64,000 bases of DNA, from assembly GCA_027491435.1 (NCBI GenBank), contig JAOZFG010000035.1, forward strand, positions 1 through 64,000, read 5' to 3'. This document shows, piece after piece, positions 9,997 through 16,054 of the stretch; positions within the stretch are counted from its first letter, which is position 1, and the number at the start of each line of letters is the position of its first letter. The position numbers and the translations under genes are program-made. The stretch comes from Thermoproteota archaeon (GTDB lineage Archaea > Korarchaeota > Korarchaeia > Korarchaeales > Korarchaeaceae). Below the pieces are notes generated by a model, which did not search any database, was not told where the DNA came from, and saw only the letters and a list, made by a program, of their open reading frames with translations.

Positions 9997-10518
9997 ATGT
10001 ACAAACTGTTAATAGCGTTAATGCTGCTGCTCCCCGTGAACGCCGTCCAGCTCAGGTTGGACGTCCCCCAGAGGGTGATCCCTGGAAGTGATGTCAAGGT
10101 GAAGATATTCATCAGAAACCCGGGGGGAGAAGAGGTTTTTGTGGAGGAAATTAGGGCAGAGATCTACTCGGAGAGGGTGTTCTGCCTCCCCTTGAAGGTC
10201 CCCCTAGGCCGCTACATACTGCCCTTACAGGTTAGGGTGCCTCCTGGAGAGGAGAGGGTTATCGAGAAGGTCCTTGAAGTCCCATACGTGCCCCTGGCGG
10301 GCGACTTTGAGGCCGATGTCAGGGCCTATGGGAGAGGCGAGCTCGGCTCCTGCTCCGTGAGGTTCTCCCTAGACTACACACCCCTATCTTTGGTAGTGGC
10401 TTTGATCCTCACAGCCGCTTTAGCGGGTATCTTGCTGACCGTTTATCGGAAACTGTCAGAAATAAGGGAGGAGATTAAGGAGAGAAGGAGGATAAATTTA
10501 TCCGTTATCGTCTCCTGA
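9997..10518 (+). CDS. Secreted/membrane protein with an Ig-like beta domain and C-terminal TM
   Basis: Signal peptide, beta-rich middle, C-terminal hydrophobic helix. Confidence 0.65.
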   Translation: MYKLLIALMLLLPVNAVQLRLDVPQRVIPGSDVKVKIFIRNPGGEEVFVEEIRAEIYSERVFCLPLKVPLGRYILPLQVRVPPGEERVIEKVLEVPYVPLAGDFEADVRAYGRGELGSCSVRFSLDYTPLSLVVALILTAALAGILLTVYRKLSEIREEIKERRRINLSVIVS

Positions 10519-11918: not shown

Positions 11919-12491
11919 CTAGACACCCTGCGGGCATATTCCCAGGACCATCGAGACCGCCTTCCACCTGAGTTCCTCTATGGAGCCCGCGTTAACCAGG
12001 AAGTCGTCGGCCATCGCAATCGCATCCCCTAAGTGGAACATCACTATCTCTTTGTAATCCTCTTCCTGGAGTTTTTCAGCGCTTGAGACGTCGAAGCCCC
12101 TTCTACCTCTCTTCAGCAGCCTCAACAGCCTTATCTTCTTTGGGGCTAGTACTCCCAAGACCATTACCTGCTCCCCGAACCTCTTTTTAAACTCCAATAT
12201 TTCCTCTACATTCCTTATACCATTTATCACGTAGCTTCTGCCGTCTTCCATCTTCTCGATCACCAGCTTAGCTATTGCAGCCGGTCCCATTCTCTCCCTG
12301 AGCTCTATCCCCAGCTTCCTCATGTTCTCCCTGTTGACCTCCACTCCTCTTCTCTCCAGCTCCTCTCTTAGCACGTCGCTCATTCCCAGAATTTCGTAAC
12401 CCAGTTCCTCGCTAAGAGCCCTGGCAATTTCATCCTTCCCACTGCCTGGCAGTCCTACCAAGAGAACAACCCTTTTACCTAGCCCCTTCAT
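11919..12491 (-). CDS. Dephospho-CoA-kinase-like P-loop kinase (UPF0200 type)
   Basis: GLPGSGKD, MSDVLRE, INGIR and ADDFLVN motifs. Confidence 0.75.
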   Translation of the reverse strand: MKGLGKRVVLLVGLPGSGKDEIARALSEELGYEILGMSDVLREELERRGVEVNRENMRKLGIELRERMGPAAIAKLVIEKMEDGRSYVINGIRNVEEILEFKKRFGEQVMVLGVLAPKKIRLLRLLKRGRRGFDVSSAEKLQEEDYKEIVMFHLGDAIAMADDFLVNAGSIEELRWKAVSMVLGICPQGV

Positions 12492-12556
12492 GCATTTACC
12501 CTTAGTAGGTGATCACCCTTTATTAAAAACGGGACCTCCTATCCCTGGGGAAAAAC

Positions 12557-13375
12557 ATGATAACTGTGATAGAGGTCAGCGCCGTAAGCGACAATGAAGG
12601 TATAATACCCTTCTCGGGTCCCCCCTTTAGGAAGGCCTTGGTGAGCTCCCTCTCGTCCCAGGACCCATTAGTGGCCAGAGTAGTCGAGATGCACTCTAAC
12701 AAGCTCATTGTGACCCCCCTTCTTAGAGATAAGGACTACGTGACCTGCGGCTACCAAGAGGAGATAGTCTATCCAGGGGTTACCTACAGGGGGAGGGTGG
12801 TTATACTCGGGGAGGAGCTCGTTAACCCAGTGAAGGGTTGGCTCTACAAGAAGCCAACCATAAAGATAGGGGAGGTCTCCTTTAGGGTATCCGGCTATTC
12901 AGTCACTCAGAAGGACGTCAGGGAGTTTATCCAGGAGAAGCCCTGCAAGAACTTCAGGATAAGGTTCAAGACCCCCACGTGTTTTAGGAGGGCTACTACA
13001 CCTTACTGCAGCCTCTACCCCAGAATGGGCCAGATAGTGGCATCCGCAATGAGGTCTTGGAATCAGGTGGCCCCTGACGACTTAAAAATAAGGGATTACA
13101 GGATCCTCACGGTGTGGTCTGACCTCAGCGTCGTCGAAACCGGCTACAACCTGTGTACAACGAAGCCTGTGGAGATAGGGGAGGGAAGGGGAATAGTGGG
13201 CTTCGTTGGGTGGGTTAACTACAAGGTTGTTGACCATCCGGAGTGGCACGCCGGGAGCCATGAGGAGATGACGACTTGGATGAACACCCTGCTGACCTTC
13301 GCCAGCTACATAGGTGTAGGCTACTTAAGGAGGGCTGGTTTTGGTGTAATATCGTACGAGGTTAAAAGAAGCTGA
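12557..13375 (+). CDS. cas6: CRISPR-associated endoribonuclease Cas6 (orphan)
   Basis: C-terminal G-rich loop GVGYLRRAGFG (GhGx5GhG), FKTPTCF and GFVGWVNY motifs, His at position 46, 272 aa. Confidence 0.85.
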   Translation: MITVIEVSAVSDNEGIIPFSGPPFRKALVSSLSSQDPLVARVVEMHSNKLIVTPLLRDKDYVTCGYQEEIVYPGVTYRGRVVILGEELVNPVKGWLYKKPTIKIGEVSFRVSGYSVTQKDVREFIQEKPCKNFRIRFKTPTCFRRATTPYCSLYPRMGQIVASAMRSWNQVAPDDLKIRDYRILTVWSDLSVVETGYNLCTTKPVEIGEGRGIVGFVGWVNYKVVDHPEWHAGSHEEMTTWMNTLLTFASYIGVGYLRRAGFGVISYEVKRS

Positions 13376-13774
13376 TTATGGGACCGTGAGGACGGCCCTC
13401 TCTGTGAGCAGGATGCCGCTCCTCAACTCCATGGCCTGATAATCCCTGGCCCTAAATATTTCCTTTAGCTCCCAGAAGACCTGCCAGGTGCTTTCGGGGT
13501 CCTTGCACGAGGATACCGTGACGGTTACCTTCCCCTGGTCTGGCCAAGTGTGCACGGCCACGTGCGACTCCCCTATAATGGCTATGCTCAGCACCCCTCC
13601 TTCATCCCTCTTCATAGTGAGCACTTCAAATAGGGTTAGCCCAGACCTTATCACGGAGGTTACCACCGCCTCCTGCACGAACTCCTGGTCGTTCAGCATG
13701 GCAGGGTCGACACCAACCATCTCACCGATCACGTGGAACTCGAAGGCCTCTACCATTTTCCACCGCACCTCCAC
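13376..13774 (-). CDS. speD: Pyruvoyl-dependent S-adenosylmethionine/arginine decarboxylase proenzyme (SpeD/SpeH family)
   Basis: GE|SHVAVHTWP autocleavage motif and a downstream Cys; real start may be the ATG at 13756. Confidence 0.75.
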   Translation of the reverse strand: MEVRWKMVEAFEFHVIGEMVGVDPAMLNDQEFVQEAVVTSVIRSGLTLFEVLTMKRDEGGVLSIAIIGESHVAVHTWPDQGKVTVTVSSCKDPESTWQVFWELKEIFRARDYQAMELRSGILLTERAVLTVP

Positions 13775-13850
13775 CTTCCTCCGGTTCTAAACATACAACT
13801 CCTCTTTAAAAACATTATGGGAAGCCAGCTCCTTCATTATCTCGCTTAGA

Positions 13851-14060
13851 TTAACTCTTAGAATATGATTCCAAGCTTCATGAAGTCCTCTAATAGGTTC
13901 TATATTAACTTAAACGGTAAAGATAATGGTTTCAGGCCTGTAAGCGGCTCTAATATGAGCTGAAGCCCAGTTAACGACTCAGAATATGAATTTCTTTAAT
14001 TAAACGTCTCTTATAAGGCTCTTTTTGCCGTAAAAGCAGTAGATTGTGCCCAGATTGTCA
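13851..14060. repeat. Degenerate tandem array, 7 x 30 bp, consensus about TWAACGNCTCWNATAWG followed by a variable 13 nt
   Basis: Gap-free alignment at 13851, 13881, 13911, 13941, 13971, 14001 and 14031: T1, A3 and A13 in 7/7; A4 and T14 in 6/7; C5, G6 and A15 in 5/7. Stops in all six frames. Confidence 0.7.
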
Positions 14061-14070
14061 AGTTGGATCA

Positions 14071-14138
14071 GGAGGGGGGTAGGGGGGGAGGGTGGGTTAA
14101 TATAGTCCCCCCCTGGGCCGGGAGGGGGGAGGAGGGGG
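14071..14138. other. G-tract/C-tract element around a TATA-like box
   Basis: Runs G6, G7, G3, G3, then TTAATATA, C7, G3, G3, G6, G5; AGGGGGGGA (14081-14089) is complementary to TCCCCCCCT (14106-14114). Confidence 0.75.
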
Positions 14139-14159
14139 TCATTAGAAAGTTCGGTCATA

Positions 14160-15239
14160 TCAGAAGTAACCCTCTAAGCTCCCGCTGACCCTAGAGTACT
14201 CCCCTCCCACACTCCTGATGAGCCTTTCAAGGAACCTGCTTTGTCTGTTAAGCTCCGGCTCCCCCCTAATAGCCAGCTCATTTGCCTTCATCCACCTTGA
14301 GATTATCTTGTTTACGCCATTGTAGGTCAGCTCTTTCCACTTAACTGGATCGTCGAGGGGCGCGGGCTCCTCGTCCAGGGAAATCCTGCCCATCTCTTGG
14401 TAGACTTCCCCCATGAAGGACTCGCCCGTCTGCCTCCTGTTTAGCAGGTAGGATATCCAGTCTAGGACTAGCTCAACCTTCACCTCAGCCTTCAAATTCC
14501 ATGGTGAGATTTGAAAGGTCTCCTCCCTGAGGGCCACGAACTCGTCCACCCTGACCAGCTCGTTGTACTTGTCGAACTCCTGCTGTGCCTGTTCCTCGAT
14601 AACCCTTATAGCCTCTAGGGGGAGGGAAAACTCCTTTGAAAAATCGCTAACGTTCCACCTTCCCAGAAACACGTTTATTCTGCCGCCAGCTTCCATCTCA
14701 ACGTCAGGAAGCAGCGGAGGAATCCTCCTAGCTAGCTTAAGTATCTCCTCAGGCCTCCTCTCCCCGACTACAGCCGAAGTTCCCCTCGACCCCTCGCTCC
14801 ACAGCCCATCCAGGTTTTCATAAGTCTCAAAGACGTCCTTGAACAGGTTAGAGTTGGCTATGACTTTTTTGGCCACGTCAAAGGAGGGGCCCGGCCTTAC
14901 CATTATCAGGGGATCCTGGCCGAAGGCCGCCGACGTGCCCCTGCCGGCTATCCTTCCGAGGAGCCAAATGGAGTCTATGACCCTCCACCCGTCTCCAAAC
15001 TCGATGGCCACAAACGGGTCCACCCTGCCGTATGTGCCCCCCCTCTCTAGAGAGGACTCTGTCCTTAAAAGCAGGCCTATCTTGACCTGATGACCTTTAA
15101 GCTTCAAATTCCTGAAAGCGTAAATGAAGAGGCCAGCTCCCAGGTCCAAAATCCAGGGAGATTTCTCATTGAGGGAATTTAGCAGATAGGTGGAATACTC
15201 GTGCCTCATCATTTCAATCTTCATTATTACCCGGGCCAC
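14160..15239 (-). CDS. Hypothetical soluble protein, 359 aa
   Basis: Long ORF with host-like codon use, GGGGAGG before the GTG, upstream TATA near 15270; no motif recognised. Confidence 0.75.
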   Translation of the reverse strand: MARVIMKIEMMRHEYSTYLLNSLNEKSPWILDLGAGLFIYAFRNLKLKGHQVKIGLLLRTESSLERGGTYGRVDPFVAIEFGDGWRVIDSIWLLGRIAGRGTSAAFGQDPLIMVRPGPSFDVAKKVIANSNLFKDVFETYENLDGLWSEGSRGTSAVVGERRPEEILKLARRIPPLLPDVEMEAGGRINVFLGRWNVSDFSKEFSLPLEAIRVIEEQAQQEFDKYNELVRVDEFVALREETFQISPWNLKAEVKVELVLDWISYLLNRRQTGESFMGEVYQEMGRISLDEEPAPLDDPVKWKELTYNGVNKIISRWMKANELAIRGEPELNRQSRFLERLIRSVGGEYSRVSGSLEGYF

Positions 15240-15406
15240 CTCCCCTCATCAATACGGAGGGCAATAGTATATAAGCAATCTCCCGGTTTAAATTGGACAC
15301 TTAGCTTAAAATCGATTAGGGATGCTCCCGAACTCCGGCCCGGCGCGGCCCGGCAGTTCCCTGGAAAAGGTTAAAGATTTCAAGTAGGATATCGGGCGGT
15401 GGTCCC

Positions 15407-16054
15407 ATGAAGATCGTCCTGCTTGGACGGCCTGGGGCGGGCAAGGGCACCCAAGGGAAGAGAATTAGTGAAACGTTTAACGTACCCCTTCTGGTAATGA
15501 GGGAGATCTTAGAAGCTGAGATCGAGAGAGGGGGTGATCTAGGGGAGAGGATAAGGGGGTACATGCTGGAAGGGAAGCTCGTGCCTGACGAAATAATATT
15601 TGAAGTGTTGAGGAGGGAGCTCTCTTCAAGAGATAGTTTCATCTTAGACGGCTTTCCTAGGACGATTAGACAGGCTGAATGGTTAGACAAAGTGCTCTCA
15701 AGTGATGGCGGGCTGACAGCTGCCCTCTACTTAGAGGTGGATGAGATAAACGTGTTGAGGAGGATCATGGGGAGGCTCAGGTGCAAGTGGTGCGGCCGGT
15801 ATTATAACGTCTTCTTCGACCCGCCCGAGGACATCAGGCGTTGTGAATGTGGCGGCCCGCTCTACCAGCGGGAGGACGACAGATATGAGGTGATAAAGAA
15901 GAGGTTGGACGTGTTTAACGAAGAAACCGCCCCGATCATAGAGTATTATGAGAGGCAGGGGAAGCTTGTTAGGGTAGATGCCAACGAGAACGACATAGAT
16001 GCCGTGTGGAGGAGGGTTAAGGAGGCCGTCGAGGCGCTGACCTCTCATCAGTAA
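15407..16054 (+). CDS. adk: Adenylate kinase (bacterial type, zinc lid)
   Basis: GRPGAGKGT, LVPDE, ILDGFPRT, CKWC...CEC and REDD motifs. Confidence 0.92.
   Translation: MKIVLLGRPGAGKGTQGKRISETFNVPLLVMREILEAEIERGGDLGERIRGYMLEGKLVPDEIIFEVLRRELSSRDSFILDGFPRTIRQAEWLDKVLSSDGGLTAALYLEVDEINVLRRIMGRLRCKWCGRYYNVFFDPPEDIRRCECGGPLYQREDDRYEVIKKRLDVFNEETAPIIEYYERQGKLVRVDANENDIDAVWRRVKEAVEALTSHQ

What the first reader, a model, noticed from the sequence alone, without database searches (positions are those of the whole stretch)
13851..14060. Cryptic non-coding array with an exact 30-bp period (7 units) near an orphan cas6
Seen: windows at 13851+30n align without gaps as TTAACTCTTAGAATATG, TGAAGTCCTCTAATAGG, TAAACGGTAAAGATAAT, TAAGCGGCTCTAATATG, TTAACGACTCAGAATAT, TAAACGTCTCTTATAAG and TAAAAGCAGTAGATTGT. 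T1, A3 and A13 are invariant; A4 and T14 are 6/7; C5, G6 and A15 are 5/7; CTC at 8-10 is 4/7. The last 13 nt of each unit vary. All six frames contain stops, so it is not a 10-aa protein repeat. Established: CRISPR units are about 60-75 nt with near-identical repeats, TIGR units are about 36 nt, and an archaeal histone dimer covers about 30 bp. Inference: fixed spacing with drifting sequence points to selection on geometry. Options are phased protein-binding sites (iteron, origin or partition type), a histone-positioning array, or a precursor cut into 30-nt RNAs.
Basis: partly seen in the sequence, partly recalled or inferred. Interest (0 to 1): 0.8.

Follow-up and report, generated by a model that had tools for sequence, protein, structure and literature searches.

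The report
Phased DNA-wrapping spacer upstream of speD
A 261-bp non-coding stretch in front of a polyamine-synthesis gene of a hot-vent archaeon keeps its exact length and a 10-bp/30-bp sequence rhythm across its genus, which looks like DNA built to be wrapped by chromatin protein, not an RNA or CRISPR-like array.

Summary

The array is part of a larger module. It runs from the speD TATA box (13805-13812) through a 261-bp AT-rich spacer to a 23-nt G-tract and a second A/T box. The spacer is 260-261 bp in all 13 same-genus loci that hold both ends, although sequence identity to the window falls to 30-44%.

- The 30-bp phase, anchored on the TATA box, is kept in 12 of 13 relatives.
- Period 10.0 bp is the strongest tested in 5 of 8 lineage representatives. 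AA/TA/AT/TT peak about 5 bp away from GG/GC/CG/CC, which matches the published archaeal nucleosome-positioning code.
- It is not coding, has no consensus RNA fold, and is unrelated to the genome's CRISPR repeat.

Best reading (0.4): a fixed-register scaffold wrapped in 30-bp steps, most likely by archaeal histone, which all 21 genomes of the genus encode. It would set the architecture of the speD promoter. No binding or expression data exist.

The parts
13376..13774 (-). speD, S-adenosylmethionine decarboxylase. This is the gene whose promoter the array abuts.
   Evidence: Pfam PF02675, E 1.5e-24. NCBIfam TIGR03330, 75.7 bits against a cut-off of 75.65. Orthologues of 61-74% identity in the genus.
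13805..13812 (-). TATA box of speD (TTTAAAAA). It is invariant in the genus and is the anchor of both periodicities.
   Evidence: Columns 1-8 are invariant in the 14-sequence alignment. It lies 31 bp upstream of the listed GTG start. Its promoter role is inferred from position and conservation and has not been shown.
13813..14073 (.). 261-bp AT-rich phased spacer (GC 0.38), with a 10.0-bp A/T versus G/C rhythm and a 30-bp super-period.
   Evidence: Length is 260-261 bp in 13 of 13 complete loci. Period-10 power z 5.1. Phase conserved. At least 3 stops in every frame.
13851..14030 (+). Six head-to-tail 30-bp units with a 17-nt core (about TWAACGNCTCWRATATG).
   Evidence: This is the only place in the genome with 5 or more PWM hits in 240 nt, and the hits are spaced exactly 30 bp apart. 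The PWM was built from these units.
14031..14060 (+). It is in phase but does not match the core motif.
   Evidence: Leave-one-out score -1.9 bits.
14074..14096 (+). 23-nt G-tract (G6 TA G7 A G3 T G3) that closes the spacer.
   Evidence: It is the only cluster of two runs of 6 or more G (or C) within 4 nt in the 1.64-Mb genome. A 23-24-nt G or C/G tract sits at the same place in 13 of 13 loci. A looser pattern is not unique in 5 relatives.
14097..14104 (.). Second A/T box (TTAATATA), TATA-like.
   Evidence: An A/T box starts 291-293 bp after the start of the speD TATA box in 13 of 13 loci. This was counted from the strings printed. Its function is not known.
14107..14138 (+). A C7 run followed by a second G-rich stretch. 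C7 can pair with the G7 at 14082-14088.
   Evidence: Relatives carry C7-N4-G6 or G7-A-C6 palindromes at this end.
14160..15239 (-). ORF359, a conserved protein of unknown function whose stop faces the module.
   Evidence: No Pfam, NCBIfam, PHROG or PDB-sequence match. Found in 16 of 21 genomes of the genus. Distant homologues lie upstream of speD in other Korarchaeia.
12557..13375 (+). cas6, convergent with speD. It is not part of the module by any evidence found here.
   Evidence: PF10040 E 2.5e-15. TIGR01877, 61.4 bits against a cut-off of 58.65. The CRISPR repeat elsewhere in the genome is unrelated to the unit.

Best explanation
The array is the core of a fixed-length DNA scaffold: 261 bp between the speD TATA box and a G/C tract. 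Its sequence is written in the rhythm of wrapped DNA. A/T-rich dinucleotides recur every 10.0 bp, with G/C-rich dinucleotides half a turn away, and three such turns make one 30-bp step.

I read it as a rotationally and translationally fixed track on which a chromatin protein assembles in 30-bp steps. The most likely protein is the archaeal histone, whose dimer covers 30 bp. That would give a stack of about 8-9 dimers (a hypernucleosome) ending at the speD TATA box on one side and at the stiff G/C tract on the other.

By occupying or releasing this track, the complex would set access of TBP/TFB to the speD promoter, and so polyamine synthesis.

Shown: the periodicities, their phase conservation, the length conservation, the non-coding nature, and the presence of histone genes.

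Inferred: that a protein binds, that it is histone, that TTTAAAAA is the speD promoter, and that speD expression is the output.
For: Geometry:
- The spacer is 260-261 bp in 13 of 13 complete same-genus loci.
- MAFFT aligns 14 spacers almost without gaps, although ungapped identity to the window is only 0.41-0.44 in group A and 0.30-0.36 in group B.

30-bp step:
- Lag-30 z is 5.06.
- A PWM of the window's units, with the positionally matching unit left out, scores best at exactly the window's phase out of 30 in 12 of 13 relatives. It also beats the +10 and +20 phases there.

10.0-bp rhythm:
- Period-10 z values are 5.1, 8.5, 6.5, 2.6, 1.8, 3.7, 1.1 and 1.3 in the 8 lineage representatives. Period 10.5 is flat.
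- The A/T peak falls at positions 1.1-2.8 mod 10 in 8 of 8.
- Pooled dinucleotides: AA, TA, AT and TT peak at 1.6, 1.2, 2.7 and 10.5. GG, GC, CG and CC peak at 6.3, 6.4, 6.0 and 7.2.
- 30 bp per histone dimer comes from the abstract of PMC10516927 as shown in the listing.

Genome context:
- In 261-nt windows this locus is the 4th strongest period-10 locus, and the only one of the top 8 with no long open frame.
- A histone gene is present in this genome and in 21 of 21 genomes of the genus.

Constraint:
- Spacer divergence is 0.057-0.096 against 0.158-0.275 at speD third positions in 6 group-A pairs.
- Group A variable columns number 42 of 149 in the 17-nt cores against 52 of 112 in the linkers, Fisher p 0.0028.
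- In group A the units resemble each other little (lag-30 z 0.45-1.39) yet keep the phase. That fits shape read-out better than a sequence-specific site.

Other Korarchaeia: the same intergenic region is also helically periodic. Group C (GC about 0.6) has period 30 z 3.0, 3.5 and 2.2 and period 10 z 2.7, 1.6 and 4.5. Methanodesulfokora has period 10.5 z 5.8 and 7.2.
Against: - No binding, MNase or expression data exist for this organism. No RNA run was listed.
- The spacer is AT-rich (GC 0.28-0.44 against 0.53 for the genome). A/T-only runs of 5 or more cover 13-34% of it and are not depleted against shuffles. The published code says such runs are excluded from archaeal nucleosomes, and that regions just upstream of genes are depleted of them (PMC3691661).
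- The 30-bp unit shows no significant two-fold symmetry. The best axis is at position 12 with P 0.17. A histone homodimer would suggest symmetry.
- In this genome the units share a specific 17-nt core, which looks more like a sequence-specific site.
- The W/S-only period-10 signal is strong but not exceptional: window rank 94 of 162,945, not among the top 10 loci. The genome as a whole has raised period-10 power, mean 2.3.
- In 150-nt windows the locus is 4th of 251 non-coding segments.
- Group B1 shows no core/linker difference in variability (p 0.41).
- The closest group-A pair has equal spacer and third-position divergence, 0.05 and 0.05.
- Relatives share ancestry, so a kept phase follows partly from the absence of indels alone.
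Confidence: 0.4

Rival explanations
1. An operator array for a non-histone, sequence-specific regulator. Monomers or asymmetric units bind the core (consensus across lineages about WAARCGS, longer in this genome) every three helical turns on one face. They oligomerise along 8-9 sites, like iterons or Lrp-type phased boxes, and activate or repress speD.
For: - The units are head to tail with a shared 17-nt core. Leave-one-out scores are 7.6-12.7 bits for 5 of 7 units.
- There is no dyad symmetry.
- The phase is locked to the TATA box in 12 of 13 relatives.
- The cores are less variable than the linkers in group A, p 0.0028.
- Other Korarchaeia carry GGYCAAAW boxes spaced 10, 20 or 30 bp upstream of the same TATA box.
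Against: - The cross-lineage consensus holds only about 2.5 bits over positions 1-7, and units within group A genomes are poorly alike.
- No other cluster of the motif exists in the genome, so the regulator would serve one locus.
- No regulator gene is conserved next to the array. ORF359 has no DNA-binding family match or recognisable fold.
- The W/S rhythm runs through the linkers as well.
Confidence: 0.25
2. Intrinsic DNA shape with no dedicated protein. The phased A/T steps make a curved or anisotropically flexible upstream arm. Its shape changes with temperature, supercoiling or polyamine level, and this tunes the speD promoter directly.
For: - There is a strict 10.0-bp rhythm with a conserved phase relative to the TATA box.
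- Length is conserved.
- The regulated gene makes polyamines, which condense and stabilise DNA. This last point is established knowledge and was not tested here.
Against: - Curvature alone does not explain a 30-bp super-period or a conserved core motif.
- A-tract bends weaken at high temperature (recalled), and the relatives' records come from hydrothermal samples.
- No curvature calculation was run.
Confidence: 0.1
3. The spacer is transcribed. The second A/T box (14097-14104), read on the minus strand, would act as a TATA box. It would place a start about 26 bp downstream, at the G-tract/spacer border. That would give either a non-coding RNA of about 265 nt ending at the T5 run inside the speD TATA box, or a long speD leader. 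The 30-nt units would be protein-binding or processing sites, as in the reader's RNA option.
For: - The A/T box lies at a fixed 291-293 bp from the speD TATA box in 13 of 13 loci (counted).
- The 23-24-nt G/C tract exactly fills the usual TATA-to-start distance. This follows from geometry. The distance of about 26 bp is recalled knowledge.
- A T5 run lies at the far end on the minus strand.
Against: - RNAalifold finds no consensus structure on either strand in 13 of the 14 aligned rows. The energy is 0.0 and shuffles are no worse. The truncated L008 row was dropped.
- No Rfam family matches in 12000-16000 apart from one chance-level match inside speD, E 9.7.
- An offset WW/SS 10-bp code has no known meaning in RNA.
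- A run of 23 G:C pairs across the region to be melted would make a poor promoter (inference).
- No RNA run is available.
Confidence: 0.1
4. A replication origin or partition site. The iteron-like repeats, AT-rich DNA and G-strings would be bound by an initiator or centromere-binding protein, perhaps ORF359.
For: - The strict G-tract cluster is unique in the genome.
- The repeats are direct and lie in AT-rich DNA.
- A lineage-restricted gene of unknown function is always adjacent.
Against: - Both orc1/cdc6 genes lie on other contigs.
- One of them has ORB-like inverted repeats with a G-string in its AT-rich upstream region, the usual origin layout.
- GC skew on the contig shows nothing at 14 kb.
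- A looser G-tract pattern is not unique in 5 relatives.
- The phase is locked to a promoter element.
- The ORF359 model has no recognisable DNA-binding fold.
Confidence: 0.07
5. A neutral relic of an old tandem duplication, with no present function.
For: The units are only about 40-60% alike, and TRF does not call the array.
Against: - Length is conserved in 13 of 13 loci.
- Phase is conserved in lineages whose sequence identity to the window is near random.
- Divergence is lower than at third codon positions in most pairs.
Confidence: 0.03

Closest known systems
Archaeal nucleosome-positioning sequences and hypernucleosomes (HMf/HTk-type histones)
   Same: AA/AT/TA/TT recur every 10 bp, offset by about 5 bp from GG/GC/CG/CC (against PMC3691661, passages). 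The 30-bp step equals the stated footprint of one histone dimer (PMC10516927, abstract as listed). Histone genes are present.
   Different: The known positioning signals are statistical, genome-wide and GC-favouring, or were selected in vitro. Here there is one natural, promoter-adjacent track of fixed length (260-261 bp). It is AT-rich, has directional units, is bounded by a G/C tract, and is conserved across a genus. No occupancy data exist.
Regularly spaced operator boxes of Lrp/AsnC-type regulators (Ss-LrpB, FL11; E. coli Lrp at ilvIH and pap). Recalled, not checked in a paper here.
   Same: There are several sites about three helical turns apart on one face. Binding is cooperative and wraps the DNA upstream of a promoter.
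   Different: Those boxes are dyad-symmetric, usually number 3-6, and often lie next to the regulator's own gene. Here no symmetry was found (P 0.17), there are 8-9 steps, and no regulator gene is adjacent.
Plasmid iterons (for example seven 22-bp repeats in R6K-type origins). Recalled.
   Same: Directional head-to-tail repeats at a spacing of whole helical turns, with drifting sequence around a core.
   Different: Iterons sit in origins beside a rep gene. Here the phase is tied to a promoter, and origin-like ORB elements are elsewhere.
CRISPR and TIGR guide arrays
   Same: A short conserved part alternates with a variable part at a fixed period. A cas6 gene is nearby.
   Different: Units are about 40-60% alike, not near-identical. 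The units are positionally orthologous between species rather than turning over. The genome's real CRISPR repeat is unrelated.
Curved upstream DNA acting with nucleoid proteins at bacterial promoters (for example H-NS-bound bends as thermosensors). Recalled.
   Same: Helically phased A/T steps lie upstream of a promoter, and DNA geometry is the conserved feature.
   Different: Here the period is 10.0 bp, not 10.5-11 bp. There is a 30-bp super-period, and the promoter is archaeal TBP/TFB-type.

Membership tests
Archaeal histone-positioning (nucleosome code) DNA | 10-bp repeats of AA/AT/TA/TT offset by about 5 bp from GG/GC/CG/CC | tested here: met
   Peaks fall at 1.2-2.7 (and 10.5 for TT) against 6.0-7.2, pooled over 8 lineage representatives. 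Period-10 z reaches up to 8.5.
Archaeal histone-positioning (nucleosome code) DNA | Histone encoded by the organism | tested here: met
   PF00808 match of 65.6 bits in this genome. Present in 21 of 21 genomes of the genus.
Archaeal histone-positioning (nucleosome code) DNA | Depletion of A/T-only oligomers and a GC-rich centre | tested here: not met
   A/T-only runs of 5 or more cover 13-34% of the spacers and are not below shuffles. GC is 0.28-0.44.
Archaeal histone-positioning (nucleosome code) DNA | Protection in 30-bp steps, or histone occupancy in vivo or in vitro | not testable with these tools
   No MNase, ChIP or reconstitution data exist. No RNA or chromatin runs were listed.
CRISPR array | Near-identical repeats of about 24-37 nt separated by unique spacers of similar length | tested here: not met
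   The period is 30 nt with lag-30 identity of 0.43. TRF gives no call. The true arrays, on contigs C4 and C15, have an unrelated repeat at 59-64-nt spacing.
   The period is 30 nt. Neither flanking gene matches such a family: speD matches only AdoMet_dc and ORF359 matches no Pfam family at E up to 0.01. Genes further away were not examined for this.
Structured non-coding RNA, riboswitch or leader | Conserved secondary structure with covariation, or an Rfam match | tested here: not met
   RNAalifold energy is 0.0 on both strands for 13 of the 14 aligned rows. No Rfam match falls in the spacer at E up to 10.
Lrp-type phased operator | Dyad-symmetric boxes | tested here: not met
   The best symmetry axis does not beat permuted units, P 0.17.
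Archaeal oriC | ORB or mini-ORB repeats flanking an AT-rich stretch, usually beside orc1/cdc6 | tested here: not met
   There is no orc1/cdc6 on this contig. ORB-like inverted repeats occur instead upstream of the orc1/cdc6 gene on contig C28. The ORB motif is recalled.
Protein-coding repeat (10-aa period), live or decayed | An open frame, or codon-position bias in substitutions | tested here: not met
   There are 3-13 stops in every frame of all 14 spacers. Group A variable columns number 29, 30 and 35 by position mod 3.

The most novel reading that the evidence does not exclude
This is a natural, evolutionarily fixed hypernucleosome-positioning element. A 261-bp track seats a stack of 8-9 histone dimers in one register between a G/C-tract stop and the speD TATA box. 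It works as a chromatin switch that senses polyamine level or temperature through DNA wrapping, and so feeds back on polyamine synthesis. A helically phased version of the spacer between the ORF359-family gene and speD would then be an ancient trait of Korarchaeia.
Probability: 0.2. Interest if true: 0.85.

Novelty: new variant of a known kind. Interest (0 to 1): 0.62.

Why it matters
Archaeal chromatin work relies on selected or synthetic positioning DNA and on genome-wide averages. A single natural locus would be different. Here an exact length, a 10.0-bp rotational code and a 30-bp translational step have been held across a whole genus while the letters drifted. That would give a ready-made test object for two questions: how histone stacks or another wrapping protein are placed, and how they control an archaeal promoter.

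It also ties a DNA-geometry element to the gene that makes polyamines, which themselves change DNA geometry. This suggests a feedback loop that can be tested.

I found no description in print. The four literature searches on archaeal origins, histone periodicity, Korarchaeum chromatin and speD upstream regions listed nothing of the kind.

Tried and rejected
- Tandem Repeats Finder at minimum score 30 does not report the array.
- Rfam at E up to 10 gives only a chance-level sR1 match inside speD.
- The search for related loci with the single speD protein returned 4 irrelevant bacterial loci. The alignment query worked.
- The script stopped at L009 with a division by zero, so its lag table covers 7 of 12 sequences.
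- In one search the coding comparisons involving L031 and L008 were out of register and were dropped. 6 of 15 pairs were used.
- GC skew along contig C16 follows gene orientation and shows nothing at 14 kb.
- AT-richness alone is unremarkable: 237 stretches in the genome have GC below 0.40.
- The PWM finds no second cluster and no regulon.
- Sequencing runs: no RNA holder was listed.
- ORF359 gave nothing usable:
  - No Pfam, NCBIfam or PHROG match.
  - Best PDB sequence match E 0.36.
  - Atlas scores of 0.87 or below with a homologue.
  - A profile search of 1.84 billion representatives gave 8 hits, none with a Pfam family among the 5 tested.
  - The model is good (pLDDT 79.7, pTM 0.78). However, Foldseek gave no match at E up to 0.001 (TldD/E rows with TM about 0.14). 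VIA-align wide gave a best Z of 5.8, below its stated noise level.
- Dyad symmetry of the unit is not significant.
- The other strong period-10 non-coding segments (C9:6180, C20:29950, C12:25477) show no lag-30 repeat.
- Earlier notes of this scan hold nothing on this genome or sequence. One note on a DPANN phased operator is only an analogy.
- A wedge-model curvature calculation was considered but not run, because I could not vouch for the parameter table from memory.

Full report
**Where it lies**

The finding sits in the 385-bp gap between two minus-strand genes.
- speD (13376-13774) is S-adenosylmethionine decarboxylase: PF02675 at E 1.5e-24, and TIGR03330 just over its cut-off.
- ORF359 (14160-15239) is a 359-aa protein with no family match.
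- A cas6 gene (12557-13375, plus strand) is convergent with speD, so speD lies between cas6 and the array.

Record titles of the nearest relatives read 'Thermoproteota/Crenarchaeota archaeon' MAGs, several from hydrothermal samples. The next nearest are Candidatus Methanodesulfokora, so I place the organism in Korarchaeia. This is an inference from titles.

**Checking the observation**

- Five columns are 6/7 or better, all in positions 1-17. Shuffles give 0.29 on average, and 0 of 5000 reach five.
- Lag-30 identity is 0.428 (z 5.06) and lag 60 gives z 5.03. No dinucleotide shuffle out of 2000 reaches this at any lag from 3 to 79. Lag 90 gives z 4.2.

Qualifications:
- Leave-one-out scoring supports five units well, unit 2 weakly, and unit 7 not at all.
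- TRF does not call the array.
- Genome-wide it is one of the 12 best lag-30 loci of 163,173 windows.

**The larger module**

In the same genus the gene order ORF359-like, gap, speD, cas6-like is kept. The gap has a fixed plan:
- the octamer TTTAAAAA about 31 bp upstream of speD (here 13805-13812);
- an AT-rich spacer;
- a 23-24-nt G tract, or in some lineages a C7-N4-G-rich tract;
- a second A/T box.

The spacer is 261 bp in 7 loci and 260 bp in 6, which is all 13 loci that hold both ends. Three further loci are cut by contig ends. Counting the printed strings, the second A/T box starts 291-293 bp after the first in all 13.

MAFFT aligns 14 spacers with almost no gaps. Yet ungapped identity to the window is 0.41-0.44 for group A and 0.30-0.36 for group B.

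In this genome the strict G-tract cluster is unique. A looser pattern is not unique in five relatives.

**The rhythm is conserved, not just the length**

I scored each relative's spacer with a PWM of the window's units, leaving out the unit at the same position.
- The mean score is highest at exactly the window's phase out of 30 in 12 of 13 relatives. L010 ranks 6th.
- That phase also beats the phases shifted by 10 and 20 bp.
- Across lineages only about WAARCGS at positions 1-7, A13, T23 and T25 survive as consensus.

Fourier analysis shows period 10.0 bp to be the strongest tested in 5 of 8 lineage representatives.
- z values are 5.1, 8.5, 6.5, 2.6, 1.8, 3.7, 1.1 and 1.3 in the 8 lineage representatives. 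There is nothing at 10.5 bp.
- The A/T maximum falls at positions 1.1-2.8 mod 10 in all 8.
- Pooled, AA, TA, AT and TT peak together and GG, GC, CG and CC peak about 5 bp away.

Genome-wide comparisons:
- In 261-nt windows the locus is the 4th strongest for period 10, and the only one of the top 8 without a long open frame.
- With a W/S-only filter it ranks 94th of 162,945 windows.
- In 150-nt windows it is 4th of 251 non-coding segments.
- So the 10-bp rhythm is strong but not unique. What is unusual is its combination with the 30-bp step, the fixed length and the kept phase.

**Constraint**

- In six group-A pairs the spacer differs at 0.057-0.096 of sites, against 0.158-0.275 at speD third positions. 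Rows with L031 and L008 were out of register and dropped.
- Against ORF359 third positions the spacer is 2.4-4 times slower in the more distant pairs, but equal (0.05 and 0.05) in the closest pair.
Group B1 shows no such difference, p 0.41.

**What it is not**

- It is not coding. Every frame has at least 3 stops in all 14 spacers, and substitutions show no codon bias.
- It is not a structured RNA. RNAalifold gives no consensus structure on either strand and Rfam finds nothing.
- It is not CRISPR-like. The genome's arrays, on contigs C4 and C15, have an unrelated repeat.
- It is probably not the origin. Both orc1/cdc6 genes are on other contigs, and one has ORB-like inverted repeats upstream.
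- It is not a regulon motif. No second cluster exists in the genome.

**Beyond the genus**

Distant homologues of ORF359 (22-27% identity) lie upstream of speD in a GC-rich sister group (L036-38) and in Methanodesulfokora (L039-40).

Their intergenic DNA is also helically periodic:
- Sister group: period 30 z 3.0, 3.5 and 2.2; period 10 z 2.7, 1.6 and 4.5.
- Methanodesulfokora: period 10.5 z 5.8 and 7.2.

It carries GGYCAAAW boxes spaced by multiples of 10 bp. Over the first 100 bp, the A/T phase relative to the TATA box falls at 4.6-7.1 mod 10 in 13 of 13 sequences, with modest amplitudes.

**How it most likely works**

A code with exactly 10.0 bp per turn, with WW and SS half a turn apart and grouped in threes, is what DNA wrapped on a protein surface in 30-bp steps should look like. 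The abstract of PMC10516927, as shown in the listing, states that one archaeal histone dimer wraps 30 bp. The genome and all 21 genomes of the genus encode histones.

I therefore favour (0.4) a fixed-register stack of about 8-9 histone dimers between the G/C tract and the speD TATA box, acting on promoter access.

Against this reading:
- The spacer is AT-rich, with undepleted A/T runs.
- The units are directional, with no dyad symmetry.
- This genome's units share a specific core.

Those points feed the main rival, a sequence-specific oligomerising regulator (0.25). The other rivals are:
- intrinsic curvature (0.1);
- a transcript started from the second A/T box (0.1);
- an origin or partition site (0.07);
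- a neutral relic (0.03).

No expression or binding data could be had.

**ORF359**

Its model is confident (pLDDT 79.7) but matches no solved fold above noise. It gives no hint of DNA binding.

Noticed in passing
window 14160-15239 (-); L036-L040 about 720-1750: The ORF359 family is a small family with no known domain: 11 clusters by word search and 8 representatives by a full profile search. A member lies directly upstream of speD, on the same strand, in three Korarchaeia groups. The model is confident but matches no solved fold above noise. It may be an unrecognised partner of polyamine synthesis.
   Followed up: partly
window 12557-13375 (+); L002 1906-2721, L010 and L014 1912-2727: A cas6 gene of about 271 aa sits convergent with speD in every genus locus looked at. 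The CRISPR arrays of this genome lie on other contigs (C4 about 10203-10516, and the start of C15).
   Followed up: partly
L106 338-440 (contig C28, upstream of an orc1/cdc6 gene): There are inverted 13-17-nt repeats, one followed by a G-string, in an AT-rich stretch just upstream of orc1/cdc6. This is the usual layout of an archaeal origin.
   Followed up: no
L004, L008, L114, L115, L117 (contig ends): In several relatives' assemblies the contig ends inside or next to the G/C tract. speD and the ORF359 homologue then fall on different contigs. The tract seems to break short-read assembly.
   Followed up: no
L036-L040, first 130 nt upstream of the speD TATA box: Boxes of the form GGYCAAAW recur at 10-, 20- or 30-bp spacing in other Korarchaeia. 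This is a different word from the one in this genus, but in the same helical register.
   Followed up: partly
whole genome G000: Mean normalised period-10 power of the WW/SS signal is about 2.3. I expect about 1 for a sequence with no periodicity (my assumption, not computed here). This suggests a genome-wide 10-bp rhythm, as reported for histone-bearing archaea.
   Followed up: no
window 14082-14113: G7 and C7 runs flank the second A/T box and could form a hairpin or cruciform. Relatives carry tighter palindromes there (C7-N4-G6, G7-A-C6).
   Followed up: no
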